A stretch of 45,106 bases of DNA from Nanobdellota archaeon (lineage in GTDB: Archaea; Nanobdellota; Nanobdellia; Pacearchaeales; GW2011-AR1): NCBI GenBank assembly GCA_020430505.1, contig JAGQJT010000006.1, positions 1 to 45,106 on the forward strand, read 5' to 3'. This document shows, one piece after another, positions 5,042 through 28,070 of the stretch. Each line of letters starts with the position of its first letter. The stretch's first letter is position 1. Both the position numbers and the translations under genes were made by a program. The notes below the pieces were generated by a model, which had not been told where the DNA came from, searched no databases, and worked only from the letters and a program-made list of their open reading frames with translations.

Positions 5042-6535
5042 TTATATTCCTTCCGGTAATCTTGGGATTCTAACTCTTCTTCTAAGGAATAATCTATTAG
5101 GAACTCTTTTAATCAGAGGTTTATCTTTTCTCTTCTCTCTTCTCAATTTCATTATTATCAAGAAGATCAAGAACAAGATTACTATTATTGCAATTAACCA
5201 GAACCAAAAAGAAATTCTTTCTACTTTGAAAGTATCATAACTACTTGCAAAAGTTTCTCCATAGTTTACTTTAGCATAAAATAAGTAATCTCCTGGAGAC
5301 AAATCCTTTGGAACATCCAAAAAGAAAACATCAAAAAAAGTTCTATTCATAGCAAAATCTTCTTTCTTGATAGTATAATTATTGTTTGCAAAATCTATAA
5401 TCCTATACTCAAGGGAAACATCAAATAGTTCGCTTAAATCCCCCATATTCACAATTGTGATATTTGCTCTAACTCTTCCTCCAGGAGAAACATATTTTTT
5501 TAATACCTCTGTTCTTATATCAAACAAAGCCGCAGGATTTTTTACATCAAGAATAACATTGGTTATCCTATCAAGATATTCTGTTCTAAAAACAACTTTC
5601 CCTACGTAAACATCTGCAATCGCAGATTTTGAAAAATATATGTTTAAATCAACAATATATTCTTGACCTGCGGGAACAGTAACTTTATTTTGTTGGGGAA
5701 AAATAAAATTTTGAACATCTACGGGAATAATATAAATTTCAAGATCGTAAGTTCCATTATTCACAATTTTAACTTCTCTTTTTGTATATTGCCCAGTACT
5801 CATTTGGACAACAAAAAAATCAGGCTCAACATAAAAATCATATCCCGAAGGGGTTACATTTGTTTCATTACTTGGAGGAGTAGTTCCGCCACCGCCACCG
5901 CCACCGCCACCGCCACCGCCACCGCCAGTACCACAATCAGCAGGACAGTTAGTAGAATCTTCTCCAGACTCACAAACACCATTGCCACAAGTAGGCCCAG
6001 TTGGGGTTTCAACAACATAATAATAATCAGAAAAACTAGAAGAACTAAAAATTAAATTTCCCCCAGAATAACTAAATAAAGTGCAATCACTGCATTCACT
6101 TGCACCTTTCATAATAAGAGGGTTTGTAAAAGTTAAACCATACATTGAGAGAGTTACTTCTTTATCAAGATAAGGTAAATTAGTGGAATCGATTCCAATT
6201 AAATTATTAGAGATATTCAGATAAGAATCAAAATTAACAGTCCTTGAAAAACCTCCTGTTAAAGTAAGATTCACTGTTTCATTAAAAATAACTTTTCCAT
6301 ACGAGGATTTTTCCAAAGTCATATTAGATAGATTATTTAATTCAGTAGTATTTTTTCCTTCAAAAACAGTTGTACTTCCATCAAAAGTTTCTGCAAGTAT
6401 TCTCAAACCATCTATGCTAACAAAAGACTGGGAATTTCCTTCAATAACATTTCCTGTAATTGCAATAACTGAAGAAACCATTAAAAATACAAATAAAAAA
6501 AGCACCTCTCTTCTTACTGAAATCATCCAATACAA
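5042..6535 (-). CDS. surface protein with Cys-knot motif, Gly14 linker, Ig/CARDB-like repeats and C-terminal TM anchor
   Basis: N-terminal hydrophobic signal (VLFLFVFLMVSSVIAITG), CGNGVCESGEDSTNCPADCG, GGGGGGGGGGGGGG, beta-rich repeats, then FWFWLIAIIVILFLIFLIIM followed by a basic tail. Many N-x-S/T sequons. Confidence 0.7.
   Translation of the reverse strand: MYWMISVRREVLFLFVFLMVSSVIAITGNVIEGNSQSFVSIDGLRILAETFDGSTTVFEGKNTTELNNLSNMTLEKSSYGKVIFNETVNLTLTGGFSRTVNFDSYLNISNNLIGIDSTNLPYLDKEVTLSMYGLTFTNPLIMKGASECSDCTLFSYSGGNLIFSSSSFSDYYYVVETPTGPTCGNGVCESGEDSTNCPADCGTGGGGGGGGGGGGGGTTPPSNETNVTPSGYDFYVEPDFFVVQMSTGQYTKREVKIVNNGTYDLEIYIIPVDVQNFIFPQQNKVTVPAGQEYIVDLNIYFSKSAIADVYVGKVVFRTEYLDRITNVILDVKNPAALFDIRTEVLKKYVSPGGRVRANITIVNMGDLSELFDVSLEYRIIDFANNNYTIKKEDFAMNRTFFDVFFLDVPKDLSPGDYLFYAKVNYGETFASSYDTFKVERISFWFWLIAIIVILFLIFLIIMKLRREKRKDKPLIKRVPNRLFLRRRVRIPRLPEGI
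5886..5926. repeat. (GGT GGC)n microsatellite encoding the Gly14 linker
   Basis: About 41 bp of perfect ACC/GCC triplet alternation on the plus strand, inside a roughly 30% GC gene. Confidence 0.95.
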
Positions 6536-9500: not shown

Positions 9501-12500
9501 ACCATTAGTAGTTAAAGGACCATAAAAAACATTTCCTTCAATTTCTAATCCAGAGGGCCTATAAGATCGAGTATTTGAAACAAGCAAATTAAATTTATTT
9601 CCAGTAGTTGTTTTATTAAATAAGTTATACTTAAAAACTTGGTTTTCTCCACTTACAGCTTGAATTGTATCTCCTCCACAATCATATGGGAAAAGAGTTT
9701 CATCATTTGCACAACTTTCAGGCATTCCATCACCTTTCCCTGCTTCACCAGGGCAATACATATAAGTTACGCCATTCTCAGGACATAAAACTCCATTTGG
9801 ATTTGTTTCCAAATACTTAAACCATCTCAAATTTGGATCATGAAGGTAATTTCCAATAACTTGAAGATCATCCACCCATTCAACATAAACTAAATCATCA
9901 CTTGAATAAGCCAATTCATTACCTATTAAATGTGTTCCGGAATCATAGGGAGTTGTTTTACCTCCAACATGCCTAAAAACATTATAAGTAGAATAATTAT
10001 GATTAAAACTAGATCTTAAAATTGAATCCTGAACAGTAATATCAGAACCGACACCATTTGTGGTTTGACCCCCAACTATAGCTTGAGGAGAAGAACCGCA
10101 ATTGTTACTTTCTCCGTCCCAAAACAAATCCAATCCATCAACAATTAAATCAGAAGGCGTATCAGAAGGTCCTCCAAAATAAATTATTCCTGTCCCTCCA
10201 GTACAAAAAGTACTTCTAATCAAAGGTTTTTCCCCAGTACCATAATAAGATAAAGCGACATGATCATCACCAGCAAATGAAATATGATAATTTGTAAGAA
10301 CCAACTCAGTACCTTTTTTGAAAAAATAAGCAGAATTAGAACTTGTCCTATAATTACTTCCACTAGTGGATAAGAAAGATAAATCCTTGTATGGTTGGTT
10401 TATTGTTCCAGTAGAAGTACCTGTATAAGTCGGATCAATATAATACACATTAGCATAATCGCTAGGATCAACATCTAAGAAAAGCGCAGAAACATTAAAT
10501 TCCACACTAGAATTTCCTCCTGTACCTCCAGTGGTTTCACACTGAGTTGTATCAAAAGTACATTCATTTGCAGTTCCAGAAGCATAACAAGACAAGATCC
10601 CTCCCTCAAATCCTAAACCAGTACAACTATTTGGGATTGAAGTTCCATCACACTGTTCTGTTCCCTCGACAACATTATTCCCACAGATTTGAGTTGGACT
10701 AGCACAAGTTCCATCAACACAACCATAAAGACAATCAACATTATTCCAAAGGATATCATTATTTTGACAAGATCCTTCTTGCAAGTAATTTGTTCCACAA
10801 TAATCATTATAGAGTGTTGAACTTCCATCAGAGTAAGTTACAGTTACATTTCCTTTTATTCCAGAGTTTAGACCATCGCTATCCACACATGAAACAGGAA
10901 CTATTAATTCGCAAGAATCAGAAGAAGTACTACACCATTCTTCTACAGAACATCCACAATCTGATTCACATGTTGAACAAGTTTCATCAGCATCACAAGT
11001 GTTATCTCCACAGAAAGAAGCTTGTGTACAACCACTAGTATCAAAACTTAAACAATCATTTGAACAAGCAAGATCTCCAGATCCAAAACCTTGGCTAGAA
11101 CAAGTTTCTCCAGTTAAATTAGTTCCATCACAAACTTCAGTTCCATTCACAACTCCATCTCCACAAACTTGAGTAGGAGATAAACAAATTCCTCCAGAAC
11201 ATCCATTAGTACAAGAAACAGTTGACCATACCAAATTATTTCCAACACAAGTTGATTCTTGTAAAGAACTTCCAGAACAATAATCTGAATGAGTTGTTAC
11301 AGTTCCATTTGAATAAGTTAAAGTGACTGTTCCAAGAGTGTTTGTATTCGAACCATCGCTATCTGAACAAGTCCAAGTAACTGTTTCAGGAATACAAACC
11401 CCATTCTGACAAATTTCATTTGAAGGACAATCTCCATCAACGGTACATTCCGGAGTCACACTAACATTTGCCAAAGTTTGTATCTCACTTAAATTTAATG
11501 CACTATCAAAAACTTTTAATTCATCAACAGTTCCATTGAAATAACTCAAAGGGGAGGTAGTATGTCTTCCAAGCATCCATGAACTAGAAGGGTTTATCTC
11601 TGGTTCGCAGCCAACTAAAGAAAGAGTTGAACCTTTTTGAACCCCATCAACATAAAACTTAGCACTATCTTGTGCTACATAAGTTAGGGCAAAATGATGC
11701 CACTGATTATCTAAATAGGAACCAGCAGAAGTAGTTAATTCTTTTCTTCCACAACCATTATCCCCATCATCAATATCTATTCTGAAATTACTACCTTCCT
11801 TCATTATAAGTAAATATTCTGCTTCTCCATAACCCCAACCAGTTTGGAAAATTGTCTGCCCGTGGCTCGTAGGCAAATTATTTACTTTTGCCCAAAATGA
11901 AATTGTCGCTTCAGAGAAAGTTTCCCCGGGATCACTAATTGTAACAAGATCATTAATCCCATCAAACTTCAAAGCAGTTCCAGAAACTCCAGAAACCCAT
12001 GTTGGGCCATTAAGATCTCCGTCATAATTATTAACAGAATCTCCAATTGAAGAACCAGATCCTTCATTAAAATCATAATATGCGATTAATCCAGTAAGAA
12101 CAGGTTGATTATAACCGCACTGACTTGTATCATATGAACAACTTGAACAACTAAATGTTCCATAATCATAACCTAGAGAAGTACATTGATCATTTGCAAT
12201 AGGCCCATCACATTGTTCATTTCCATTTATTATATTGTCACCACAATATCCTCCTTGAACAGTTTCAAGAGTACAAGAACTAGAACAATAATCACAACTA
12301 CTTCCATATGAAGGAGAACACAGATTTCCATTAGAAGTTCCTTCATCACATTCTTCTCCAGTTTCTAAGATAGCATTTCCACAAGTAGGAGGAGAGATAG
12401 TTGAAGCAAGGCTAACATTAAATTGATACAATTGCCATTTTTTATCATAACAATTTCTTTTCCCATTATCAAAAACTCCACAAGAATAAATAATAACATA

Positions 12501-12872
12501 ATTTTCTTCAGAAAAACTATTTGAAGAAGTCAAACCAAAATCAGAAGGAGATAATATAAGAGTTTTAGAAACAGAACCAGAAGTTATCCAACCATTTCCC
12601 CCAAAACTTCCTTGGACCCAATCCTCCCCATTAAAACTAGTATAATATTTTGAAAAAATGTAGTCATCCTCTACGCTTATTGTTAAAGGTAAAGTAGAAG
12701 AATCATTTTGAAAATTCAATTCATAACTGCTCAAGAGATAACCTGATTCAGGAAGAGAGAAGTGAGGATGAAGAGGATTAATTATAAAACCTGTTTTAGC
12801 TGGAAGATAGATTGCAATCAAAACTAACGCTACAATCAAGCTCGCAAAAACAAAAACATTACTCCACCTCAT
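6561..12872 (-). CDS. giant multidomain surface protein: TM/signal anchor, Cys-rich repeats, LamG, right-handed beta-helix, purple-acid-phosphatase-like metallophosphoesterase, DUF1593-like domain
   Basis: Cys-rich repeats: CGNAILETGEECDEG, CGDGVVNGTEVCDG and CGNNVVEGTEQCDG. LamG_3-like block: YYDFNEGSG...LKFDG...ISFWAKV...WHHFALTY...FYVDG...FNGTVDELKVF. Beta-helix end motif: DIDGNTRGGDGSWDIGAYEY. Phosphoesterase motifs: GDSG, GDFSYD, GNHD, GHEHSYER. DUF1593-like: PRVVVMSDIGGSEPDDQETFVRFLLYSNEMDVEGLIGT, plus a C-terminal Ig-like part (DASGTSDPDGDSLTYSWW). The start is set at the ATG at 12872 (MRWSNVFVFASLIVALVLIAIYL); the tracked 12977 start would overlap the upstream gene by 59 nt. Confidence 0.85.
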   Translation of the reverse strand: MRWSNVFVFASLIVALVLIAIYLPAKTGFIINPLHPHFSLPESGYLLSSYELNFQNDSSTLPLTISVEDDYIFSKYYTSFNGEDWVQGSFGGNGWITSGSVSKTLILSPSDFGLTSSNSFSEENYVIIYSCGVFDNGKRNCYDKKWQLYQFNVSLASTISPPTCGNAILETGEECDEGTSNGNLCSPSYGSSCDYCSSSCTLETVQGGYCGDNIINGNEQCDGPIANDQCTSLGYDYGTFSCSSCSYDTSQCGYNQPVLTGLIAYYDFNEGSGSSIGDSVNNYDGDLNGPTWVSGVSGTALKFDGINDLVTISDPGETFSEATISFWAKVNNLPTSHGQTIFQTGWGYGEAEYLLIMKEGSNFRIDIDDGDNGCGRKELTTSAGSYLDNQWHHFALTYVAQDSAKFYVDGVQKGSTLSLVGCEPEINPSSSWMLGRHTTSPLSYFNGTVDELKVFDSALNLSEIQTLANVSVTPECTVDGDCPSNEICQNGVCIPETVTWTCSDSDGSNTNTLGTVTLTYSNGTVTTHSDYCSGSSLQESTCVGNNLVWSTVSCTNGCSGGICLSPTQVCGDGVVNGTEVCDGTNLTGETCSSQGFGSGDLACSNDCLSFDTSGCTQASFCGDNTCDADETCSTCESDCGCSVEEWCSTSSDSCELIVPVSCVDSDGLNSGIKGNVTVTYSDGSSTLYNDYCGTNYLQEGSCQNNDILWNNVDCLYGCVDGTCASPTQICGNNVVEGTEQCDGTSIPNSCTGLGFEGGILSCYASGTANECTFDTTQCETTGGTGGNSSVEFNVSALFLDVDPSDYANVYYIDPTYTGTSTGTINQPYKDLSFLSTSGSNYRTSSNSAYFFKKGTELVLTNYHISFAGDDHVALSYYGTGEKPLIRSTFCTGGTGIIYFGGPSDTPSDLIVDGLDLFWDGESNNCGSSPQAIVGGQTTNGVGSDITVQDSILRSSFNHNYSTYNVFRHVGGKTTPYDSGTHLIGNELAYSSDDLVYVEWVDDLQVIGNYLHDPNLRWFKYLETNPNGVLCPENGVTYMYCPGEAGKGDGMPESCANDETLFPYDCGGDTIQAVSGENQVFKYNLFNKTTTGNKFNLLVSNTRSYRPSGLEIEGNVFYGPLTTNGAANTIGVYSRDDVSISNNRIFAPFNTGIYDIQTNYAEVFGNIISGENTAMQINAGVSHIYNNIFNSEGGTYGTLWLPGGTAYLKNNIFSTIPAVKYIHNTQLITQSSNNLYISSASGMSGSSVVADPEFVDSANENFHLQSTSPAIDAGTNVGASYNVDIDGNTRGGDGSWDIGAYEYVEGTTGGTGGGGGGASLIPTTQNLLVAFIGDSGAGTNFQNALNLISSEGADLVIHNGDFSYDSPTTTFVNRVDNTLGNNYVYVGSNGNHDTDEWGDIRDGCTDSTTWAGWFNCNMQENGFTPVYDDNYDRYSFEYEGLKVVFGSQAIDPTGNSDFVNQELSDDNHIWKICGWHKNQQTMQVGSKTNEVGWAPFQACLENGAIISMGHEHSYERTKTLTDFQNLVVDTNQHPLVGGVPSNPNEVVVDEGKSFAFVSGAGGYSFRDQTRCTPTSYPYGGGSGCNYIWGNIYANQQGLTTGVLFIKFYVDGNPNKAHAYFKNVNGQIIDEFDIYKGAPSAISSNYEKPRVVVMSDIGGSEPDDQETFVRFLLYSNEMDVEGLIGTNSQHGWDRGDTSTFNEIIDAYGSVLNNLQVQDPNYPSDSYLHSVVKLGQTNCVDLACVGSGKSTEGSNHIISVLNENDDRPVWFMAWGGTLTLAQALWDMENTLGYSQAQMDQITSKIKVYDIAGQDSGGAWIVQNYPNIFYTRSAYQFLAFAQGTGNPSESQRGDLSVASLDWFNSNIRNNHDPYGDKYPLKIYMWEGDSPSITYFINNGLGDVNHPYYGSWGGRFTEITDSTPPRRDHGNENVYPGGMYTDEVSETWLYGSQTYTDQYSPLYRWREEYQNDFAARMDWTLTSNFNSVNHAPNVVLNGDSTKSVLMFSANVGGSISLDASGTSDPDGDSLTYSWWVYPEPSGYTGSQQNYLNGFLNPLSGTSTTFSVPSDASSGDEFHAILEVKDDGTGYGGGSLPLTRYRRAVITVN

Positions 12873-12918
12873 TAGGTAATTTAGGAAAAAAGGGTTTATA
12901 AAAATTATTGTGGACAGA

Positions 12919-13503
12919 CTAACAAGATAAACCGTTCTGAATTCCCTTAAATGAGAGAGTATTGTTATAATCTCCACTAGGTTGTGAAGCAGGAATATCT
13001 AACCAGAATCTATAATAATTAATTCCTCCAGGAAGAATATTCTCCCCAGATGAAACATAATTAGTGGTTAAAGCGACATCATTTGTGAGACTAGGAATTG
13101 AATCATTCGTAGAAGTTGAATTAGCATAAGTTTCATTTCCCAGAACAATCTCATCTAAAGCGACGCTAGTCAATCCAGAATTTGCTTTTATACAAAAATC
13201 CACATTGGTGTTACTATCGCTAGAAACATTAATATAAAATTCTGTGGAATTTCCAATCCCAATATTATTCCCAGTTGAATTCAAATTAATTGCAGGCAAA
13301 ACACTAACATTTCCAAAATAAATTCCTGAAGAGAGATTATTGCTGAATTCAATTGCTAAATATTTCGTTATGGAGACATTTGAATCAACAAAGTCTTCTA
13401 CAACAAATCCAGAATGCACAAAATTTTGAAAAGTTAAAAGAAATAAACAAATTAAAATAATAAAAAACAAAATTAAATTCAAATTCCTCTTAATCATTAT
13501 CAA
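12919..13503 (-). CDS. small secreted sequon-rich beta-sandwich-like protein (paralogue family A, copy 3)
   Basis: N-terminal signal/TM (LILFFIILICLFLLTF). Shares with 14110..14760 and with the C-terminus of 14815..16890 the pattern GIYFGNV..LP ... NVS.DSNT.VDFCI.AN..LT..ALD.I.LGNETY.NST ... YRFWLDIPA.Q.SGDYNN...FKG. Confidence 0.7.
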   Translation of the reverse strand: MIMIKRNLNLILFFIILICLFLLTFQNFVHSGFVVEDFVDSNVSITKYLAIEFSNNLSSGIYFGNVSVLPAINLNSTGNNIGIGNSTEFYINVSSDSNTNVDFCIKANSGLTSVALDEIVLGNETYANSTSTNDSIPSLTNDVALTTNYVSSGENILPGGINYYRFWLDIPASQPSGDYNNTLSFKGIQNGLSC

Positions 13504-13508
13504 AAGAG

Positions 13509-14108
13509 TTATTTCTTCTTTTTATTCTTTTTTCTTTTAAGAAGATTCCTTGTTAACAAAATTCCCGCAATCAAAGCAACTGTAATATAAACCAGACTAT
13601 AATTTCTCGAATGTGCCAAACATTGAACTCTAACTCTTAAAGGAGCAGAAACAGAAACAGTTGTAGATGAACCCCCAGTATTTCCTTCTAAAATATCAAG
13701 TGAACCTGCTTCTTTTACTTCAACTTCCCCCTCATAAATTTTCACAGGTTCTGAACAATCTTGTTCACACATAAAACGATTGAATAAAAGACAATCCTCT
13801 TCATAAATCACAGGAGTTTTAAAACAAAACTCTACAGGAATGGCTTGATCACTAGAAGTTTGCTTAGGAATAAATTCTGATTGAGATTCCATAGAACTAA
13901 CAATTGGTAATAGTTCTTCAGATAATTCTATTTGAACATATGAATCCTTATTCCAAGGGTTGTAAACCTGATAGGTCATGCAAGTTTTTGTTTTCTCCGG
14001 AACCAAAGAACTTTCTTTATCCCATTTGACTCCAACTCCTGCAGAAACCAAAGGCACAACTAAAAGAGTCATACAAAAAATCGCAAGTAAAAAACTAAAT
14101 TTTTTCAT
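13509..14108 (-). CDS. signal-peptide protein with C-terminal TM anchor and poly-Lys tail (hypothetical)
   Basis: Begins MKKFSFLLAIFCMTLLVVPLVSA, has a beta-rich ectodomain with several Cys, and ends YITVALIAGILLTRNLLKRKKNKKKK. It is wedged 1 nt and 5 nt from the two paralogue-A genes. Confidence 0.7.
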   Translation of the reverse strand: MKKFSFLLAIFCMTLLVVPLVSAGVGVKWDKESSLVPEKTKTCMTYQVYNPWNKDSYVQIELSEELLPIVSSMESQSEFIPKQTSSDQAIPVEFCFKTPVIYEEDCLLFNRFMCEQDCSEPVKIYEGEVEVKEAGSLDILEGNTGGSSTTVSVSAPLRVRVQCLAHSRNYSLVYITVALIAGILLTRNLLKRKKNKKKK

Positions 14109-14109
14109 T

Positions 14110-14760
14110 TTATGGTGTTAAGGTCCCACAATTAAGGGTGGTTTGTACTCCTTTAAAATAAATTGAATTGTTATAATCTCCACTAGCCTGAGCTGCAGGA
14201 ATATCTAACCAAAATCGATACCAGTTTACAGAACCTGCTGCAATATTCTCTCCAGATTTTGCATAACTAGTTGTTAAAGAAACTTGACTTCCAGAACTAG
14301 GATTATTTAGATCTGTAGAGGTGGAATTATAATAAGTTTCGTTATCTAAACCAATTGTGTCTAAAGCAGCATTTGTTAAATCATCATTAGCTCCAATACA
14401 AAAATCAACAGGAGTATTGCTATCTGTAGAGACATTCACACAATAAGTGGAAGCACTAGCAGCACCGTCGTAATTATGAGTACCATTTTGATCCGTAACT
14501 GGAAGAGTTGTTACATTCCCAAAATAGATTCCTTCAGAAAGATTATCGCAAAGAGCAACAGATAGATATTTTTGAATTGTCACATTTGAAACAGTTGAGC
14601 TTTCTGTAGCATGACCAGTAAATGATAGAATAGATTTTCCCGTTTTTGCGTCAGTATTCTGAATTACAAGCAATATCAAGCATGCTACTATGACTATTAT
14701 AAGAACAATATTGAACCAACTCACCCTTTTCGTTTTCATTTTGGATAGCAAAAAAAACAT
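14110..14760 (-). CDS. small secreted sequon-rich beta-sandwich-like protein (paralogue family A, copy 2)
   Basis: Signal/TM (FNIVLIIVIVACLILLVI). Carries the same conserved blocks as 12919..13503 (GIYFGNVTTLP, NVSTDSNTPVDFCIGAN, WYRFWLDIPAAQASGDYNNSIYFKG). An alternative start is the ATG at 14739 (MKTKR). Confidence 0.7.
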   Translation of the reverse strand: MFFLLSKMKTKRVSWFNIVLIIVIVACLILLVIQNTDAKTGKSILSFTGHATESSTVSNVTIQKYLSVALCDNLSEGIYFGNVTTLPVTDQNGTHNYDGAASASTYCVNVSTDSNTPVDFCIGANDDLTNAALDTIGLDNETYYNSTSTDLNNPSSGSQVSLTTSYAKSGENIAAGSVNWYRFWLDIPAAQASGDYNNSIYFKGVQTTLNCGTLTP

Positions 14761-14814
14761 TCTTTTGTTTATAAATATTTCTTTATTCTAGTGTATGAAA
14801 CTAATTTCAAAAAA

Positions 14815-16890
14815 TCACAAACTAGATTGATTATTTATTGCTTTAAAATCTAAATTATTAAGATATGTTCCTGCTGCTTGAGCTGCGGGAGCATCCAAAT
14901 AAAATTTAAGATAGACAGTAGTACCGTTAGATAAATCGCTAGCAATTAAAGTATAATTAGTACTCATCGTTAATCTATCTAAATCTGGAACAGTATTATT
15001 TGTAGTATTCACACAGAAAGTTTCATTGCCAAGCCCAATCTCATCTAAAGATGCAGTTAGCAGATTACCGTCGGCACGCACATACAAATCAACGTAAACA
15101 TTTTCTGCAGAGATATTGATCCAATATTCAGTAACATTTCCTGTTCCATTATTTCCTTCTGCATCTAAATCATCTGCAGGAAGAGAAATCAAACTCCAAT
15201 TAACATTCCATAATAAAGAAGGAGATAAATCAATGGCAATTGCAGCAGAATCATTTATTGTAAAATTAGAAGTGTTATATCCCCAATTACCGCTAGTATC
15301 ATTACAAGCAAACAAAACTGAATGATTCCCCAAAGTCAAAATTGGATTGTAATACCAATAAGTGTCATTAACTTCATTCATTGTTACATTGCCTTGATCA
15401 TCTAAATTATACAAACAAACCGAGATATTTTCATTTTCCTCGACGGAAACGTTGAAATCTATATCAAGAGTTGAATAAGAGATATTTTCTGGGCTGATTA
15501 TTGTTACATTTGGGGAAGTTATATCAATTATTTCTAATTCATTTGAATCTGTCCATGCGCTATAAGAGTAACCATCATTAGTTCTCATAGAACATTTCCA
15601 AACATCTCCCAAAGTCAAATTTCCTTCTTCTAATTGCGTAGAGAAAGTTGTCCCATTAGATTGGCCTGAAAAAGATTCATTAAACTGAGAAACATCATCT
15701 TTTATCCAATTCACATAAACAGTCAAAGAAGAACTATCTGTATCCTCGATATAACCAGAACATTCAAGATTTGTATCAGATTCATTTCTTCCATTTAACG
15801 ATAATAAAGTCACACCAGTTGGATCTTCTGGAGTTGTACTTAATATAGTTAAAGTATTGCTCAAGACGGTTATGCCATCGTCAAAAACATCATTTGGAGT
15901 TAAAGCCACTTGCCATATTTCTCCTTCAGAAGTTTCTTGAGAAACAAATAATTCTGGATGCTTTCCTGCAAGACCTGCCTCATAAAGAGCAGAAATTTGT
16001 TCTTGAGAAAGAGAATAATTAAAAATAGTTGCCTCATCTATTAAAGCATTAGCGTAGTAGGTATTTGAAGAACCAAATCGTCCAATTCTTCTATTCCCAA
16101 AAGAATAAACTAAACTTCCACTAGTAGGTTGTTCTCCAACATATTGTCCATCTAAATAAGTTTTCTTTACTGATCCATTGAATGTAAACCCCACATAATG
16201 CCAATTACCGTCGTTAGCTCCAGAACCATGGTTAGAAACATATCTAGAACTTGTATAAACCCCTGTTCTAACGGCCCCTCCTGAATGAGGGATACTTATT
16301 TCTAATTCTTGTCCTCCAAAGATAATATGATAATTCCCAAGAGGAGTTCCAACAGCCTTAAACCAAGCAAATGCAGAAACTTCAGTTTTATAACCTAAAT
16401 CATTAGGCAAATTAATCCAATCATAATTACTAGAGTAATAGCACCCCCCGACCTTTCCAGAAGAATTCCAAATTGGAGCATTGTCCAAACTTCCTCCTCC
16501 CAAAGTCCCATTATTTTCGTAAGTGGAATAATCTCTAACCGCGCCAGAGTCTGCCCAAAAAACCCTTCTATCAAAAGGCATATTCAAAACAGCCAAACTT
16601 GTTCCATCTACTCTCCAGTCAGTGATATTTGTTATAGCCTGTTCATCAGCGTCGGTAGAAGAGTATGAAACACTTAAATTTTCTCCACTGGTATTCAACC
16701 CAGAACTAGAACTTAATAATACGTTAGAAGAAACTGGAAATCTATTTCCATTTAAAAAAAATGTATTTATGTACCCGTCTGGATTAACAATTAAACTGCC
16801 ATCTCCCCCCGAATTTATTGAGATTATGTCAGCAGATACCGAAGTGAGCATAAACAAAAACAAAAGCAAAAAAATAGCTCTAACATTCAT
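14815..16890 (-). CDS. secreted LamG-domain protein with Ig-like repeats and a C-terminal family-A domain
   Basis: Signal peptide MNVRAIFLLLFLFMLTSVSA. Contains an NITDWRVDGTSLAVLNMPFD module followed by LamG_3-like blocks (AFAWFKA, WHYVGFTF, YLDGQYVG, IDEATIFN). The last approximately 150 aa are paralogous to 12919..13503 and 14110..14760 (LKFYLDAPAAQAAGTYLNNLDFKA). The start is chosen at 16890 because it forms an ATGA overlap with the upstream stop codon. Confidence 0.8.
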   Translation of the reverse strand: MNVRAIFLLLFLFMLTSVSADIISINSGGDGSLIVNPDGYINTFFLNGNRFPVSSNVLLSSSSGLNTSGENLSVSYSSTDADEQAITNITDWRVDGTSLAVLNMPFDRRVFWADSGAVRDYSTYENNGTLGGGSLDNAPIWNSSGKVGGCYYSSNYDWINLPNDLGYKTEVSAFAWFKAVGTPLGNYHIIFGGQELEISIPHSGGAVRTGVYTSSRYVSNHGSGANDGNWHYVGFTFNGSVKKTYLDGQYVGEQPTSGSLVYSFGNRRIGRFGSSNTYYANALIDEATIFNYSLSQEQISALYEAGLAGKHPELFVSQETSEGEIWQVALTPNDVFDDGITVLSNTLTILSTTPEDPTGVTLLSLNGRNESDTNLECSGYIEDTDSSSLTVYVNWIKDDVSQFNESFSGQSNGTTFSTQLEEGNLTLGDVWKCSMRTNDGYSYSAWTDSNELEIIDITSPNVTIISPENISYSTLDIDFNVSVEENENISVCLYNLDDQGNVTMNEVNDTYWYYNPILTLGNHSVLFACNDTSGNWGYNTSNFTINDSAAIAIDLSPSLLWNVNWSLISLPADDLDAEGNNGTGNVTEYWINISAENVYVDLYVRADGNLLTASLDEIGLGNETFCVNTTNNTVPDLDRLTMSTNYTLIASDLSNGTTVYLKFYLDAPAAQAAGTYLNNLDFKAINNQSSL

Positions 16891-19800
16891 ACAAAACAAC
16901 CTCCTTGACATCTAACAGTACAGATGTTTGCAGAATCTTGCCCTTCTATACGCAAAACATCATAATTAGTTATATTGGCTGTGGTCGTGAAAGTTCCAAT
17001 TCCAGTTATGGAAATATTATTTCCTCCAACATTAACTTCGCTAGTAATATTACAACCGTCGGAACAATCAACTTCCCAATTTCCAGAACCAGAATATGTG
17101 CATGTTCCAGAAATTAAAATTGTAAGGTTCTCACTAATAATAGTCTCGCTCTCGTTAATTAAGTCATTTGCAGTAACAGCAACACTCCAATTTTCATCAA
17201 CAATAGTTTCAGAGGATGAAATTAGACTTGAAGCAATCCCATTAGATTCATTTAGATATATTGCTTGAACTTGTTCTGGAGAAAGAGTCCTATTAAAAAT
17301 TTTCACCTCATCAATTGATCCATTAAAAGCACTAGCAATATTTTGAGAGACATATCTTATTTGAGTTACATCTGCCCCTGCAATAGTGTTATTCTCTACA
17401 AAAGAGCCATTTAAGTAAACCGAAACCTCATCTCCTTGACGAACAACTGCAATGTGGGTCCACTGATCATAAGGAACTACGGCAGAAGTGAATCCCCAAT
17501 CTTGCCCATTAGTAAAACTTTCTGTACGAACATACGCGGGATCACCAGTCAAGTAAACATTTGAATAGCCAGAATATTTAGACAAAACGATATTTTTTGA
17601 CCCTCCAACATAATGAGGATAAACCCAAAAAGAAAAAGTAAAATTAACAAAAGTCAAATCAGAACCCAAATCAACATACCCAGTTCTATTAAAAGAATAA
17701 CATCCTCCAACTTTACAACTATTAGTCCACACAGGAGAATTATCCACAAAAGTGATTGTCCCATCATTTCCGTAAGTCGAATAATCTCTAACCGCATTTG
17801 TATCAACAGAAGAGATATTCAAATCAAAAGGCATATTTAAAACTGCAATGCTTGTTCCATTAATTCTCCAATCAGTAACATTGTAAATAGTGTCGTCATT
17901 AACATCTGTAGAACCACTTATTATTACAGTTAAATTCTCAGCGCTAGTATTAGTTCCCAAAGAAGAAAGTATTTCGACAAGTGGATTAGTTGGCGCAACA
18001 TTTCCTAAGGTTAAATTAACAACAGAATAACCTGTAACATTAACAGATTTCTCATCGTAAAACATCCCTTTAGTACCATTTATAGTATAATTATTATAAG
18101 AAATTGAATTTGTATAATTTTCATAATCTCTCAAGACAGTGAGTCTTTCAATTCCAGATGCAGAAGTCGTTCCAGAATCTCTAAGTACACTATTATTATC
18201 ATATGCGTAAACATTTGCACCAGAAACAGCATTTACACCGTCGGTAGCATTAACATCCACATAATCATGCAGATAATATCTATTTAAGGTCTCTTGATTC
18301 CAGTAAAGCCCTCCTAAAGTGGAAGTATTTGTTATATTAAAAGTATGATTTGATGCAGCAGTATTCATATAAAAAGAATCCCCTCCGAAATCATTATCAA
18401 CAAATACATAATTATTATTGCCCCTATAGACAACAACCACATAAGGATAACCCCCATTATTGAAACTATTATTTACAAAATAACTCTCAGTGTAAGAACT
18501 AGAATCTAGAATTAAACAGAAATTAGGGCAGTTGTAATAATTATTTGTAAAATTCTCATAATCCGTTCCCCCATAAAAAAGAGTGGCATAGTTAGAACCC
18601 CCAGAATCAATAAAATTATTTTCGAAAAGAAGATAATCTGAATCTTGAAGATAAATTGCATAATCATTTTTATCCTCTGAAATATAATTATTTGTGAAAT
18701 TATTATTATTAGAACCCACTCTTAATTTTAGAGGATTAACGTCATTTGAAAGTGTTGAGATGTTTGTATTATTCACCAAATAACCACTAGAAGAATAAAA
18801 ATATAATCCGTGAGAAGTATTTGCAACTATGTCAGAATCAAAAACAAAACCATTCGTAGAACTTCCTTGAAGTAAGCCATCATTCCGGATAGTAACATTT
18901 CTATAAGTAACGTTGTTACAGTTAGCGCACAAAACTTGACCATAATTGCTAAGATTAAGATTCTCAAAAACATAATCACTCAAAGAATCATTAAACAACA
19001 CAGGATAATCTTCAGCATAATTAGAAGTGTCAACATCATTTCCCAAACCAGAATATGCTACATAAGATGGAGCCAGTAATGAAGTAACTCTATTATTTCT
19101 CAGGATATTGTTGTCTGCACTATTTGCCAAAAAAATTCCAAAAGAAGCATCTCCCCCAGCATCATCATCGGTAGTAGATACATTATTGTTTGAAATATTG
19201 CAGTTATCTGAATAATAATTTCCTATTCCAAAAGATCTACCAAAGTCTGTATCAAATTTATTATTATAAACTGTAATATTGTCTGAAGAATAAAGGTGAA
19301 GAGCATAACAACTATAACAACGAGTGTAGACCTCATTATTAATCACTCTTGAATTATCAGAATCTCTCAAATACAATCCATAATCACCATACCCAAAATA
19401 ACCATTAGAAGTAGAAGAAACATTTACATTTTCTATAAGGGAATTAAGAGATTGATAATAATAAATACCGAAATTGTTTGTAGTACTTGCATGCTCTGTG
19501 AATATGGTCACATTTGAATCTTTCACATTTGTGTTTACAACATTCCCATATGAGTAAACTGCTATAGAATTTGTCACAGTAAGGCTGCTCAAATTAAAAT
19601 TACAATTTTGAATTAGCAAATTATCATTTCCATTATTAACCACTCCATATCCCGTACTGGAAGAAGCATAGTTTACATAGTTACCTTGACAATCCAAGGT
19701 TACATTGTCTGAAGAAATAGTAAAACAAGTATCCGTTGAAGAAGCATTGGTTGTTAACTTATAGGTCCCAGGAGAACTCAAAGTTCCACAATCTCCTACA

Positions 19801-20825
19801 AATTGAGTTCCAATCTCCAAATTCTCACTTAAAACTGTTGATCCCTCCTCTGTCAGATCTGTCGGAGTTACTGCAACAGACCAAACATCACCATTAGAAG
19901 TTTCGTTACTAAAAATTGCTTGAATGCTTTTTCCATTATTGGTGTAATTATAAATTGTTTCAACTTGCCCTTGAGAAAGTTCCCTATCAAAAACAAGAAA
20001 TTCATCTATTTTACCTTCGAATTCTGTACTTCCACTTCCACTAATAACATCTCCAATTACAAACTCACCAGAAGTGTCTGGAAGAGTATAAGTGCAACTT
20101 GATGTAGTATTCACCAAAACTCCGTCTTGATAAATATTACAAACACCAGTAGTAGAATTAAATGTTAAAATAATGTGAGACCAAATAGACCTAAAATCCT
20201 CCAAAGTTAAAACAGATGTTCCATTAACTCTGAAAGTCCACCTATTTGAATTGTAAATGTCAGATACAAACATAATATTCTCAGAAGTATGAGGATTTTC
20301 TACTTCTTTAACAAAAACCGTTTCATAACCTAGATCTGGAGTAGGATACATCCAAAAAGAAACACTAAATCCTTCAGAAAGCGTTAAAGAATCTGAATCT
20401 TCTACAACAATCCTATCATCATTGCCATCAAAAGTATAACAACCTCCAACCTTACACCCAGCAGCATTGGTCCAAGTAGGCACATATCCAGAAGTACCAT
20501 CCCCCAAAGTACCATTATTCCCATATGTAGAATAATCTCTCAACCCTTGAAAAGTTGTGCTACTATAACTCGTATCAAAAGGCATATTTAAAACAGCGAT
20601 ACTTGCCCCATCAACTCTCCAATCAGTAATGTTATAAACAGGATCAGAATCTCCATCAGATGCAGAAAAAATGATGGATAAATTTTCATCAGTGGTATTT
20701 GTTCCAGAAGAAGAATTAATTATCAAATTGCTAACACTTGGAGCCACAGCGAGAACGAAAGAGGAAATTAAAACAATTCCAATTAAAAAAATCAATGCAA
20801 AAACAATTGTACTCTTATTCTTCAT
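16887..20825 (-). CDS. large secreted protein: LamG, parallel beta-helix repeats, LamG
   Basis: Signal MKNKSTIVFALIFLIGIVLISSFVLA. Two copies of the N.TDWR..G.SIAVLNMPFD + LamG module (residues approx 30-320 and 930-1230) flank about 550 aa of N-rich 20-25-aa beta-helix-like repeats (NN.. I.. N.. S patterns, as in NosD/PbH1). Cys-rich C-terminus. Confidence 0.85.
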   Translation of the reverse strand: MKNKSTIVFALIFLIGIVLISSFVLAVAPSVSNLIINSSSGTNTTDENLSIIFSASDGDSDPVYNITDWRVDGASIAVLNMPFDTSYSSTTFQGLRDYSTYGNNGTLGDGTSGYVPTWTNAAGCKVGGCYTFDGNDDRIVVEDSDSLTLSEGFSVSFWMYPTPDLGYETVFVKEVENPHTSENIMFVSDIYNSNRWTFRVNGTSVLTLEDFRSIWSHIILTFNSTTGVCNIYQDGVLVNTTSSCTYTLPDTSGEFVIGDVISGSGSTEFEGKIDEFLVFDRELSQGQVETIYNYTNNGKSIQAIFSNETSNGDVWSVAVTPTDLTEEGSTVLSENLEIGTQFVGDCGTLSSPGTYKLTTNASSTDTCFTISSDNVTLDCQGNYVNYASSSTGYGVVNNGNDNLLIQNCNFNLSSLTVTNSIAVYSYGNVVNTNVKDSNVTIFTEHASTTNNFGIYYYQSLNSLIENVNVSSTSNGYFGYGDYGLYLRDSDNSRVINNEVYTRCYSCYALHLYSSDNITVYNNKFDTDFGRSFGIGNYYSDNCNISNNNVSTTDDDAGGDASFGIFLANSADNNILRNNRVTSLLAPSYVAYSGLGNDVDTSNYAEDYPVLFNDSLSDYVFENLNLSNYGQVLCANCNNVTYRNVTIRNDGLLQGSSTNGFVFDSDIVANTSHGLYFYSSSGYLVNNTNISTLSNDVNPLKLRVGSNNNNFTNNYISEDKNDYAIYLQDSDYLLFENNFIDSGGSNYATLFYGGTDYENFTNNYYNCPNFCLILDSSSYTESYFVNNSFNNGGYPYVVVVYRGNNNYVFVDNDFGGDSFYMNTAASNHTFNITNTSTLGGLYWNQETLNRYYLHDYVDVNATDGVNAVSGANVYAYDNNSVLRDSGTTSASGIERLTVLRDYENYTNSISYNNYTINGTKGMFYDEKSVNVTGYSVVNLTLGNVAPTNPLVEILSSLGTNTSAENLTVIISGSTDVNDDTIYNVTDWRINGTSIAVLNMPFDLNISSVDTNAVRDYSTYGNDGTITFVDNSPVWTNSCKVGGCYSFNRTGYVDLGSDLTFVNFTFSFWVYPHYVGGSKNIVLSKYSGYSNVYLTGDPAYVRTESFTNGQDWGFTSAVVPYDQWTHIAVVRQGDEVSVYLNGSFVENNTIAGADVTQIRYVSQNIASAFNGSIDEVKIFNRTLSPEQVQAIYLNESNGIASSLISSSETIVDENWSVAVTANDLINESETIISENLTILISGTCTYSGSGNWEVDCSDGCNITSEVNVGGNNISITGIGTFTTTANITNYDVLRIEGQDSANICTVRCQGGCFV

Positions 20826-27947: not shown

Positions 27948-28070
27948 TGAGCCTACTCGGATTTGAACCGAGGACCTCTGGCTTTCTTAGAGTAAATCTG
28001 TGAAAGTTGTAATTCTCATGAATCACATTCCTATAAGACCAGCGCTCTAACCAGGCTGAGCTATAGGCTC
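27948..28070 (-). tRNA. tRNA-Ile (anticodon UAU) with a 48-nt intron at canonical position 37/38
   Basis: Cloverleaf built by hand. Acceptor GAGCCUA/UAGGCUC (7/7 pairs). D stem GCUC/GAGC. Anticodon stem CUGGU/GCCAG (one G-U). T arm CUCGG-UUCAAAU-CCGAG. Discriminator A, no encoded CCA. Loop C-U-UAU-A then the intron GGAAUGUG...CUAAGAA then A38. CUUA (32-35) can pair with UAAG in the intron, leaving two 3-nt bulges at the splice sites (BHB-like). Confidence 0.8.

What the first reader, a model, noticed from the sequence alone, without database searches (positions are those of the whole stretch)
12919..15270. Family-A beta-sandwich domain in three copies around a membrane-anchored partner: a possible filament-subunit module
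Two small secreted proteins (12919..13503 and 14110..14760) and the last approximately 150 aa of the 691-aa LamG protein (about 14818-15270) share one domain. Its conserved blocks are GIYFGNV..LP, NVS.DSNT.VDFCI.AN, ALD.I.LGNETY and a C-terminal [YF][WY]LD[IA]PA.Q..G.Y.N...FK. The ending (..IPA.Q..G.Y......) resembles the last strands of bacterial SCPU/Csu-type and TasA-like subunits that polymerise by strand exchange, but this is pattern memory, not a search result. A 199-aa protein with a signal peptide and C-terminal TM anchor sits between the two small genes at spacings of 1 and 5 nt. One reading is a tip adhesin (LamG protein carrying the same domain), shaft subunits and a membrane anchor or chaperone.
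Basis: inference. Interest (0 to 1): 0.65.

Follow-up and report, generated by a model that had tools for sequence, protein, structure and literature searches.

The report
Pilus-like adhesin display cassette in DPANN archaea
Tiny symbiotic archaea (Pacearchaeota and relatives) carry a conserved, unannotated set of four or five genes that looks like a simplified bacterial chaperone-usher pilus system, and it probably builds a sugar-coated stalk that holds a large sticky protein on the cell surface.

Summary
Two small genes (12919-13503, 14110-14760) and the last ~150 aa of the LamG protein (14818-15279) share one domain ("famA"; profile E 3e-28 to 6e-94). A signal-peptide/C-terminal-TM protein lies between the small genes at gaps of 1 and 5 nt.

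- famA is a large family with no Pfam match (587 clusters at 50% identity); every relative that carries a name comes from a DPANN archaeon.
- Its AlphaFold model hits almost only donor-strand pilins (Csu, FimA, CfaB, PapE, the Sulfolobus thread), weakly (best E 3.6e-3; TM up to 0.57). TasA does not appear.
- The 199-aa partner has a PapD/MSP-like fold.
- Thirty-two species-level genomes keep the order: large protein ending in famA, one or two small famA, partner, optional famA.
- Its mature N-terminus carries the same 15-residue peptide (TGxATE..S.SNV[ST]I) as the small famA proteins. That peptide is the most conserved part of famA.

My best reading (confidence 0.45) is an usher-less, chaperone-assisted donor-strand stalk, closest to the Pam pilus of CPR bacteria. 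Strand exchange itself is untested. A static WxL/WxLIP-like complex remains a live rival.

The parts
14815..16911 (-). Large secreted LamG protein (698/691 aa): signal peptide, LamG domain (residues 161-307), Ig-like repeats and a C-terminal famA domain. Proposed distal (tip) adhesin. It lacks the shared N-terminal peptide.
   Evidence: Pfam Laminin_G_3, E 3.5e-16. famA profile E 3e-28 at residues 545-696. Orthologous position in 32 genomes. No hit to the N-terminal peptide HMM. 4.6 N-glycosylation sequons per 100 aa.
14818..15279 (-). famA domain copy 3, at the extreme C-terminus of the LamG protein. It lacks the Cys pair of the small copies.
14110..14760 (-). Small famA protein 1 (probable start 14739, 209 aa = P0001): weakly conserved N-terminal hydrophobic helix, conserved N-terminal peptide, then the pilin-like beta-sandwich. 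Proposed stalk/shaft subunit.
   Evidence: Profile E 5.7e-94. AlphaFold2 pLDDT 84.5. Foldseek top hits are Csu, FimA, CfaB and PapE pilins. 8 sequons.
14575..14619 (-). N-terminal peptide TGHATESSTVSNVTI of famA1: candidate donor strand after a probable signal-peptidase site (G-H-A|T).
   Evidence: Translation. Highest column identity in the family, 0.62 against 0.54 for the domain. Mean pLDDT of 48 (residues 41-50) and 65 (51-60), and no secondary structure in the monomer model.
13509..14108 (-). Partner protein (199 aa): signal peptide, one PapD/MSP-like Ig domain with six conserved Cys and a long hairpin whose Gly-rich tip (~135-150) is low-confidence, then a C-terminal TM helix and Lys-rich tail. 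Proposed membrane-tethered chaperone or docking platform.
   Evidence: AlphaFold2 pLDDT 89.9. Foldseek: HYDIN PapD-like domain E 4.3e-5, VAP/MSP, WxLIP 1.5e-4, Caf1M 4.2e-4, FimC 1.8e-3. 91 homologues. Always adjacent to famA. Only 0.5 sequons per 100 aa.
12919..13503 (-). Small famA protein 2 (probable start 13497). Second stalk or adaptor subunit; optional across genomes.
   Evidence: Profile E 1.6e-84. 53% identical to famA1. Paralogue pattern.
13369..13413 (-). N-terminal peptide SGFVVEDFVDSNVSI of famA2.
5042..6535 (-). Fourth conserved component ('w497', probable start 6526): signal peptide, the same N-terminal peptide as the small famA proteins, an N-terminal domain, a CGNGVCE Cys knot, a poly-Gly linker, a beta-rich C-terminal half, then a C-terminal TM helix and basic tail. 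Proposed membrane anchor or terminator that supplies the last donor strand.
   Evidence: A homologue lies downstream of the partner or the last famA, on the same strand, in all 35 loci. hhalign against famA aligns only the N-terminus (prob 89%, E 2e-6). No Pfam or PDB relatives.
6413..6457 (-). N-terminal peptide TGNVIEGNSQSFVSI of w497.
   Evidence: Translation. Family consensus TG[FYN][AV]TE..SPSNV[ST][IV]. The peptide HMM built from famA alone hits only w497-family N-termini outside famA; the window's own copy was not among those hits, its motif being read from the sequence and the family alignment.

Best explanation
The region is the core of a conserved surface-display cassette of DPANN archaea. 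I propose that it works like a chaperone-usher pilus without the usher. All components are exported by Sec.

Proposed roles:
- The small famA proteins are N-glycosylated, pilin-like beta-sandwich subunits. After signal-peptide cleavage at [FYH]-A| they expose a conserved N-terminal peptide (TE..S.SNV[ST]I).
- That peptide is donated in trans to the famA domain of the preceding subunit.
- The large LamG protein has a C-terminal famA domain but no such peptide. It can only accept a strand, so it sits at the distal end as the adhesin.
- The ~490-aa protein at 5042-6535 has the peptide but no famA domain, and it has a C-terminal TM helix. It would plug the last subunit and tie the assembly to the membrane.
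- The 199-aa partner is a sequon-poor PapD/MSP-like domain on a C-terminal TM helix. It would hold newly exported famA domains in an assembly-competent state at the membrane, like PamC/PamD or FimC.

Shown: the domain family, the folds at prediction level, the conserved gene order, the shared peptide and its distribution among components, and the conservation and sequon patterns.

Inferred: signal-peptide cleavage, strand donation, the order of subunits, the partner's chaperone role, and whether the product is a long filament or a short defined stalk.
For: 1. Fold of famA. The model (pLDDT 84.5) matches donor-strand pilins almost exclusively: Csu 7zl4 (E 3.6e-3, prob 0.99), the FimA rod 8psv, FimA 6swh (TMt 0.57), CfaB, PapE 1n12 (TMt 0.55) and the Sulfolobus thread 7pnb. 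No antibodies or FN3 domains appear.
2. Fold of the partner. The model (pLDDT 89.9) matches PapD-like/MSP domains and the CU chaperones Caf1M and FimC, and it carries a C-terminal TM helix. That is the topology reported for PamC/PamD in the CPR Pam pilus (10.64898/2026.03.03.709456).
3. Gene order. Large-famA, small famA x1-2, partner, optional famA, w497 is kept in 32 species-level genomes. w497 is present in 35 of 35 loci.
4. Shared peptide. A 15-column HMM built from the famA N-terminal peptide alone, searched against 1806 ORFs, gives full-length non-famA hits only at the N-termini of the w497 family (18 hits, best E 8e-4). The large proteins and the partner do not hit. hhalign gives prob 89% and E 2e-6.
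5. Conservation. The peptide is the most conserved segment of famA (0.62 against 0.54). The preceding helix (0.27) is conserved like a cleaved signal peptide (0.17-0.30), not like the retained TM helices (0.45-0.49). The peptide is unstructured and low-confidence in the monomer model.
6. Position. famA sits at the extreme C-terminus of large proteins of 397 to 3174 aa, as pilin domains do in tip adhesins.
7. Glycosylation sequons. Density is high in famA, the LamG protein and w497 (2.4-5.2 per 100 aa) but cytoplasm-like in the partner (0.5). This fits exposed structural parts against a transient, contact-rich helper.
Against: - No multimer prediction and no model coordinates were available, so neither a groove nor strand insertion was seen.
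- The monomer model did not self-complement with the N-terminal peptide, as AbpA and some thread models do.
- Foldseek E-values for famA are weak: none is at or below 1e-3, and TM scores are 0.3-0.57.
- There is no sequence or profile homology to CU pilins or chaperones (hhalign prob 5% or less; Pfam).
- The partner has one domain, not two, and no invariant Arg/Lys pair.
- The spacer between the helix and the peptide is long in some members, up to ~25 aa. That is awkward for signal peptidase I.
- A subfamily (20 of the top 150 clusters) has a ~95-aa charged N-terminal region before the helix. In those proteins the helix is probably a type II anchor.
- The large proteins keep an 'NFTI' strand at the position of 'SNVTI', so this strand could simply be part of the fold in cis.
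Confidence: 0.45

Rival explanations
1. A static WxL/WxLIP-like surface complex, not a polymer. The membrane-anchored partner inserts a strand from its long hairpin (or its invariant N-terminus GVGISW) into famA domains. This tethers one large adhesin and one or two small famA proteins to the membrane as a platform. The shared N-terminal peptide would serve another purpose, such as glycosylation or processing.
For: The cassette composition is the one described for Firmicute WxL clusters: a small protein that is only the domain, a large protein with the domain at its C-terminus, and a TM-anchored Ig-like partner predicted to complete the domain's sandwich (PMC10599100). Foldseek matches the partner to WxLIP 9i1y (E 1.5e-4, 174 aligned columns). 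The partner has a long hairpin with a low-confidence, Gly-rich tip. Only one or two small famA genes occur per cassette.
Against: There is no WxL, DUF916 or DUF3324 Pfam signal. This model leaves unexplained why w497 and the small famA proteins share the most conserved peptide of the family while the large proteins lack it. There is no peptidoglycan to bind in these archaea (general knowledge).
Confidence: 0.2
2. famA is a complete, self-sufficient beta-sandwich, for example a glycan-binding or calcium-binding module. The cluster would then be a surface-protein island whose members do not exchange strands.
For: The monomer model is confident over residues 61-205 without using the N-terminal peptide. 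Conserved Asp/Asn-rich loops (DSNT.VD, GNETY, GDYNN) could bind metal or sugar. Foldseek also hits the N-terminal beta-sandwich of GH123 and Nga glycosidases. All fold matches are weak.
Against: The order and adjacency of four or five genes are strictly conserved across 32 genomes. The domain always sits at the extreme C-terminus of large proteins. The N-terminal peptide shared with an unrelated anchored protein is left unexplained. The top fold matches are dominated by pilins.
Confidence: 0.2
3. The small famA proteins are type II membrane proteins whose N-terminal helix is never cleaved. The cassette would make a membrane-embedded receptor or anchor array, with the conserved peptide acting as a juxtamembrane stalk.
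For: The hydrophobic stretch is long (median 18 residues). A subfamily has a ~95-aa charged cytoplasmic extension before the helix. The spacer after the helix is variable and sometimes long.
Against: Helix conservation (0.27) matches signal peptides (0.17-0.30) and not the retained TM helices of the partner and w497 (0.45-0.49). A good signal-peptidase site ([FYH]-A|) precedes the peptide both in famA and in the two w497 N-terminal variants. Without cleavage, w497 would be anchored at both ends.
Confidence: 0.1

Closest known systems
Pam pilus of Candidate Phyla Radiation bacteria (PamA/B pilins, PamC/D chaperones, PamT tip, PamR anchor; bioRxiv 10.64898/2026.03.03.709456)
   Same: Both hosts have a single membrane and a reduced genome, as episymbiont lineages do. 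Both have Ig-like subunits with a truncated-Ig, CU-pilin-like fold, PapD/FimC-like helpers that carry a C-terminal TM helix, and no usher. Both have a TM-anchored terminal protein with an extra N-terminal strand. In both, the donated element is among the most conserved parts.
   Different: Pam pilins have two domains with the donor strand as an inter-domain linker, whereas small famA has one domain with an N-terminal peptide. PamC/D have two domains and the partner has one. PamT is a single small domain, whereas the proposed tip here is a large LamG adhesin. The paper reports Pam pilins as exclusive to CPR bacteria, whereas every named relative of this family comes from an archaeon. Sequence relatedness could not be tested because no Pam sequences were available. 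Pam filaments are experimentally solved; this system is only predicted.
Classical and archaic chaperone-usher pili (Fim, Pap, Caf, Csu/SCPU)
   Same: These are the best structural matches for famA (Csu, FimA, CfaB, PapE) and include matches for the partner (Caf1M, FimC). The proposed logic is the same: a tip adhesin with a C-terminal pilin domain and no N-terminal extension, subunits with an extension, and a chaperone.
   Different: There is no outer membrane and no usher. There is no sequence or profile similarity. The chaperone-like protein has one domain, is membrane-tethered and lacks the Arg8/Lys112-type invariant basic pair. The subunits are heavily sequon-rich, which implies N-glycosylation.
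WxL / WxLIP (Csc) cell-surface clusters of Lactobacillales and Bacillales (PMC10599100)
   Same: The cluster grammar is identical: a small domain-only protein, a large protein with the domain at its C-terminus, and a TM-anchored Ig-like partner predicted to insert a strand. The partner's fold matches the WxLIP structure 9i1y.
   Different: There are no WxL motifs or WxL/DUF916/DUF3324 profiles. WxLIP has two Ig domains. WxL binds peptidoglycan, which these archaea lack. WxL clusters are not described as having a w497-like component with a shared N-terminal peptide.
Sulfolobus acidocaldarius threads (Saci_0406; PMC9715654)
   Same: Both are archaeal, Sec-dependent, heavily N-glycosylated beta-sandwich subunits. 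The thread subunit is linked by an N-terminal donor strand whose first residues after the signal peptide are conserved. It gives a weak Foldseek match (7pnb, E 0.012).
   Different: There is no conserved N-terminal Asp or YYY motif, and no sequence relationship. Threads have no identified chaperone or anchor. The distribution is crenarchaeal (arCOG10215).
TasA / archaeal bundling pili AbpA-AbpB (PMC9245690)
   Same: Both are donor-strand filaments of organisms with a single membrane, and both have an accessory initiator or anchor (TapA/AbpB).
   Different: TasA and AbpA are jelly-roll (Peptidase_M73-like). famA gave no such Pfam hit, and no TasA or AbpA structure appears in the top 50 fold matches. 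No SipW-type signal peptidase is encoded nearby.

Membership tests
Chaperone-usher pili (Fim/Pap/Csu) | Subunit belongs to Pfam Fimbrial, SCPU or DUF4402, or shows profile homology to CU pilins | tested here: not met
   No Pfam hit for the window proteins. Only 3 of 42 family members give sub-threshold DUF4402 hits (best E 0.17). hhalign against 18 E. coli K-12 pilins gives prob 2.5%.
Chaperone-usher pili (Fim/Pap/Csu) | Subunit has an incomplete Ig fold with a groove filled by a donor strand | tested here: inconclusive
   Foldseek top hits are CU pilins (E 3.6e-3 to 0.25, TMt up to 0.57). The tool returns no coordinates and no multimer run was possible, so the groove was not examined.
Chaperone-usher pili (Fim/Pap/Csu) | Conserved N-terminal extension on all subunits except the tip adhesin | tested here: met
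   The peptide TG.ATE..S.SNV[ST]I is present in the small famA proteins and w497 and absent from the large famA-terminated proteins. It is the most conserved segment of famA. That it acts as a donor strand is inferred.
Chaperone-usher pili (Fim/Pap/Csu) | Two-domain periplasmic PapD-family chaperone with a conserved basic pair | tested here: not met
   The partner has one PapD/MSP-like domain plus a TM helix. No invariant Arg or Lys is found in 38 sequences. There is no PapD_N Pfam hit in 38 members. hhalign against 7 E. coli chaperones gives prob 1.4%.
Chaperone-usher pili (Fim/Pap/Csu) | Outer-membrane usher | tested here: not met
   No Usher family hit in any large ORF of the window. From general knowledge, archaea of this group are not known to have an outer membrane.
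CPR Pam pilus | PapD/FimC-like chaperone with a C-terminal TM helix encoded next to the pilins | tested here: met
   Partner fold and topology and adjacency in all loci. It has one domain, whereas PamC/D have two.
CPR Pam pilus | TM-anchored terminator with an extra N-terminal strand | tested here: inconclusive
   w497 has a signal peptide, the shared N-terminal peptide and a C-terminal TM helix. Its fold and the insertion of the peptide were not modelled.
CPR Pam pilus | Homology to PamA/PamB (two-domain pilins with a linker donor strand) | not testable with these tools
   No Pam sequences or structures were available. Small famA is single-domain. The paper reports Pam as restricted to CPR bacteria.
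WxL / WxLIP clusters | Cluster of a small domain-only protein, a large protein with the C-terminal domain, and a TM-anchored Ig-like partner | tested here: met
   compared with the definition in PMC10599100.
WxL / WxLIP clusters | WxL domain (PF13731) and DUF916 + DUF3324 domains | tested here: not met
   No such Pfam hits in 42 famA or 38 partner sequences. There is only a fold-level match to 9i1y.
Archaeal threads (arCOG10215) | Conserved mature N-terminus with Asp and a YYY motif; similarity to Saci_0406 | tested here: not met
   The mature N-terminus here is TE..S.SNV. The PDB sequence search is empty. Foldseek against 7pnb gives E 0.012 and TM 0.33.
TasA / AbpA (Peptidase_M73 jelly-roll) | Camelysin-like jelly-roll fold or profile | tested here: not met
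   No Pfam hit. No TasA or AbpA entry among the top 50 structural matches.
Type IV pilins | Class III signal peptide ([KR][GA]| before the hydrophobic helix), a retained helix, and a prepilin peptidase or assembly ATPase nearby | tested here: not met
   No consistent G/A cleavage motif precedes the helix. The helix is poorly conserved. No pilus ATPase or peptidase was found in the window.

The most novel reading that the evidence does not exclude
DPANN archaea (Pacearchaeota, Woesearchaeota, Nanoarchaeota) build a previously unrecognised, N-glycosylated donor-strand pilus or stalk with its own membrane-tethered PapD-like chaperone and a membrane-anchored terminator, and they use it to present large LamG-type adhesins to host cells. 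This would be the first archaeal donor-strand system with a dedicated chaperone. It would be the archaeal counterpart of the CPR Pam pilus, which implies either convergence in the two episymbiont radiations or an ancient usher-less ancestor of chaperone-usher pili.
Probability: 0.35. Interest if true: 0.85.

Novelty: new variant of a known kind. Interest (0 to 1): 0.68.

Why it matters
How DPANN archaea attach to their hosts is largely unknown. Their genomes are full of giant LamG-type surface proteins with no known means of anchoring. This cassette offers a concrete, testable anchoring and display mechanism, and it is present in at least 32 species-level genomes and 587 sequence clusters.

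The archaeal donor-strand filaments described so far (threads, bundling pili, cannulae) have no identified chaperone. A PapD-like, membrane-tethered helper next to pilin-like subunits would change that picture.

Together with the 2026 Pam pilus of CPR bacteria, it would bear on where chaperone-usher assembly came from. It would also give three unannotated protein families (famA, partner, w497) a working function.

Tried and rejected
- Sequence searches for famA, the partner and w497 found nothing meaningful in Pfam or among PDB sequences, whether queried as single sequences or as profiles. The w497 PDB hits are poly-Gly linker artefacts. The partner's Pfam hits (ETRAMP, DUF4064, holin) are artefacts of the TM helix and Lys-rich tail.
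- Profile-profile comparison with 7 E. coli K-12 CU chaperones and 18 pilins, fetched for this purpose, gave prob 5% or less. I therefore claim no sequence homology to classical CU systems.
- hhalign of the partner against w497 and of famA against the partner aligned only TM or signal regions. These proteins are not paralogues of one another.
- The TasA/camelysin idea has no support.
- The type IV pilin idea is rejected: there is no class III signal motif and the helix is poorly conserved.
- I asked whether the two small famA genes form two ancient orthologous groups. They do so only partly; several lineages duplicated independently and some have a single copy.
- I looked for RNA-seq runs to compare expression of the subunits and found none. 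The DNA occurs in activated-sludge and wastewater metagenomes.
- Literature searches for a DPANN system of this kind found nothing.

Full report
**Observation.** The window is low-GC (about 30-35%) archaeal DNA. It contains an intron-containing tRNA, an Elp3-like gene and a YchF/YGR210-like GTPase gene. The same DNA occurs in activated-sludge and wastewater metagenomes. On the minus strand a co-directional gene run extends from 26529 down to 3835. The two small proteins and the C-terminus of the LamG protein align at 53% and 39% identity and contain the quoted blocks. A profile of 42 homologues finds exactly these three places in the six-frame translation of the window: E 5.7e-94, E 1.6e-84, and E 3e-28 for residues 545-696 of the LamG protein.

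**The families.**
- The domain ("famA") has no Pfam match and no relative among PDB sequences.
- It is nevertheless a large family. There are 173 clusters at 90% identity in one search. A profile search of 1.84 billion representatives gives 587 clusters at 50% identity with E at or below 1e-3.
- Every named member comes from Pacearchaeota, Woesearchaeota, Nanoarchaeota or unclassified "archaeon" MAGs.
- Three architectures recur: stand-alone proteins of about 195 aa; large proteins (397 to 3174 aa) with famA at the extreme C-terminus; and a ~290-aa form with a charged N-terminal extension.
- The 199-aa partner also has its own unannotated family of 91 clusters. It has an invariant stretch around the signal-peptide cleavage site (SAGVG), six conserved cysteines and a C-terminal TM helix with a Lys-rich tail.

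**Synteny.**
- A scan of one genome per GTDB species with the partner profile returned 32 loci.
- Local HMM searches of these loci show one order wherever the contig reaches far enough: large protein ending in famA, one or two small famA genes, partner, optionally another small famA.
- A homologue of the window's 497-aa ORF (5042-6535, "w497") follows downstream on the same strand in all 35 loci held. The YchF-like GTPase usually comes next.
- The window differs only in having a 2138-aa giant inserted between famA2 and w497.

**Predicted structures.**
- famA1 modelled with mean pLDDT 84.5, high from residue 61 to 205.
- Against the PDB no match reaches E 1e-3, but the list is strikingly uniform. 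It contains Csu archaic pilus subunits (E 3.6e-3), type 1 pilus FimA (TMt up to 0.57), CfaB, PapA/PapE (TMt 0.55), FimI/F/G, SafA and the Sulfolobus thread subunit (E 0.012).
- About 35 of the top 50 matches are chaperone-usher pilins. None is an antibody, FN3 or cadherin domain.
- The partner modelled with pLDDT 89.9 as one Ig-like sandwich plus a C-terminal helix. It has a long hairpin whose Gly-rich tip (about residues 135-150) is low-confidence.
- Its best matches are PapD-like/MSP domains: HYDIN 2e6j (E 4.3e-5, TMt 0.66), VAP and major sperm protein. They also include WxLIP of Enterococcus faecium (1.5e-4) and the CU chaperones Caf1M (4.2e-4) and FimC (1.8e-3).
- Each result alone is modest. 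A pilin-like subunit next to a PapD-like, membrane-tethered protein is what a donor-strand system would look like.

**The N-terminal peptide.**
- After the N-terminal hydrophobic helix, the small famA proteins carry TG[HYF]A-TE.ST.SNVTI.KY.
- The w497 family, otherwise unrelated, carries TG[FYN][AV]-TE..SPSNV[ST][IV] in the same place. A short variant has the hydrophobic region ending in FA directly followed by xTE..SPSEV.I.
- A 15-column HMM of the famA peptide, without the signal peptide, was searched against 1806 ORFs. Its only full-length non-famA hits are w497 N-termini (18 hits, best E 8e-4). The large proteins and the partner do not hit.
- hhalign of the two families aligns only this N-terminal module (prob 89%, E 2e-6).
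- Within famA the peptide is the most conserved segment (mean column identity 0.62, against 0.54 for the domain). The preceding helix (0.27) resembles the signal peptides of the partner and w497 (0.17, 0.30), not their retained C-terminal TM helices (0.45, 0.49).
- In the monomer model the peptide is coil, with mean pLDDT of 48 and 65 over residues 41-50 and 51-60.
- The distribution of the peptide is the one expected for the N-terminal extension of chaperone-usher pili. It is present on stalk subunits and on a membrane-anchored terminal protein, and absent from the adhesin and the helper. The distribution is an observation; the function is an inference.

**Glycosylation signature.**
- Sequon density is 3.8-5.2 per 100 aa in the small famA proteins, about twice the compositional expectation. 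Seven or eight positions are conserved, including N52 inside the peptide.
- Density is 4.6 in the LamG protein and 2.4 in w497.
- The partner has 0.5 per 100 aa, like the cytoplasmic proteins of the window.
- This fits exposed structural components against a helper whose surface is used for protein contacts.

**Mechanism proposed.** This is a Sec-dependent, usher-less donor-strand assembly.
- The LamG protein is the distal adhesin; it has an acceptor domain only.
- The small famA proteins are the stalk or shaft; each has a peptide and an acceptor domain.
- w497 is the base; it has a peptide and a TM anchor.
- The partner is a membrane-tethered chaperone or platform.
- Whether the product is a long filament or a short chain of defined composition cannot be decided here. 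The presence of only one or two small famA genes, with lineage-specific duplications, is compatible with both.

**Counter-evidence and rivals.**
- No groove or inter-chain strand was seen, because no multimer run or coordinates were available.
- The model did not self-complement.
- famA's fold matches are weak.
- Profile-profile comparison with E. coli CU chaperones and pilins is negative.
- Some members have long spacers between the helix and the peptide.
- One subfamily has a ~95-aa charged region before the helix, which in those proteins is probably a type II anchor.
- The large proteins have an NFTI strand where the small ones have SNVTI, so that strand might belong to the fold in cis.
- The strongest rival is a static complex like the Firmicute WxL/WxLIP clusters. 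Their composition is identical (small domain-only protein, large protein with the C-terminal domain, TM-anchored Ig-like partner), and the partner is predicted to insert a strand into the domain (PMC10599100).
- Weaker rivals are a self-sufficient lectin-like domain and an uncleaved, membrane-embedded array.

**Comparison with known systems.**
- The closest functional analogue is the Pam pilus of CPR bacteria (bioRxiv 10.64898/2026.03.03.709456). It has Ig-like pilins joined by donor-strand exchange, PapD/FimC-like chaperones with C-terminal TM helices, no usher, and a TM-anchored terminator that inserts an N-terminal strand.
- The differences are the single-domain subunits and helper here, the large LamG tip, the archaeal source of every named relative, and the lack of any experimental structure.
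- Membership in the CU, WxL, thread, TasA/AbpA or type IV pilin families fails at least one defining test in each case (see the membership table).
- Literature searches found no description of this DPANN cassette.

**Verdict.** The finding is real and more extensive than reported. The filament-module reading is partly supported. Fold, partner type, synteny and a shared N-terminal peptide all point to strand-complementation assembly, but polymerisation is unproven and the TasA analogy is wrong. I rate it as a new variant of a known kind (donor-strand surface fibres) and of good interest, because a single multimer prediction or N-terminal proteomics experiment could confirm or refute it.

Noticed in passing
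window 5042-6535 (-): A ~490-aa protein with a signal peptide and a C-terminal TM helix, with no Pfam or PDB relatives. It is conserved downstream of the cassette, on the same strand, in all 35 loci. It shares the N-terminal peptide of the small famA proteins, and it also has a CGNGVCE.GE..C..DCG knot and a poly-Gly linker.
   Followed up: yes
window 6561-12977 (-): A 2138-aa giant protein inserted into the cassette only in this genome. It combines LamG, a calcineurin-like metallophosphatase, an Sde182 nucleoside-hydrolase-like domain and the Sde0182 C-terminal domain. It has 66 Cys but is sequon-poor (0.6 per 100 aa), unlike its neighbours. The listed GTG start overlaps famA2; the real start is probably the Met near 12872.
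   Followed up: partly
window 27948-28070 (-): A 123-nt tRNA match in Rfam (58.6 bits) that ARAGORN did not report. It is probably an intron-containing archaeal tRNA.
   Followed up: no
P0241, P0244, P0258, P0274 and about 16 more clusters: A famA subfamily of about 280-300 aa. A charged, coiled-coil-like N-terminal region of ~95 aa precedes the hydrophobic helix and the ITG[FY]A motif. It is probably a type II membrane-anchored variant of the subunit.
   Followed up: partly
L004 1-2789 (MAG JAACWA01, also L022): A tandem duplication of the core (famA-partner-famA-partner-famA), plus a second cassette elsewhere in the same MAG.
   Followed up: no
P0216 (698 aa): A single predicted protein that reads through from a small famA into a complete w497, with the w497 signal peptide retained. 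It is either a sequencing or gene-calling artefact, or a natural fusion of neighbouring genes.
   Followed up: no
window 16887-20825 and 20848-26529 (-); L002 1-6730: The upstream giants do not carry famA. One is 1312 aa, with two LamG domains and a beta-helix. The other is 1893 aa with no Pfam hit. Their C-terminal ~70-80 aa are conserved with the corresponding giants of L002. The C-terminus of the 1893-aa protein contains a GNVGIGTTTP motif that recalls tail-fibre or endosialidase chaperone domains (this resemblance is from memory). They may use a different attachment module.
   Followed up: partly
window 13509-14108 (-), residues 20-27: The most conserved stretch of the partner is the signal-peptide cleavage region and mature N-terminus (VSAGVGIS; column identity 0.81, with A23 and G24 invariant). 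This is unexplained. It could be a second candidate for a donated or edge strand.
   Followed up: no
window 14818-15279 (-) versus small famA genes: The Cys pair of the small famA proteins (DFC, invariant, and the nearly invariant C-terminal C) is absent from the C-terminal famA domain of the LamG protein and its orthologues. It is present in some other large proteins, for example P0278.
   Followed up: no
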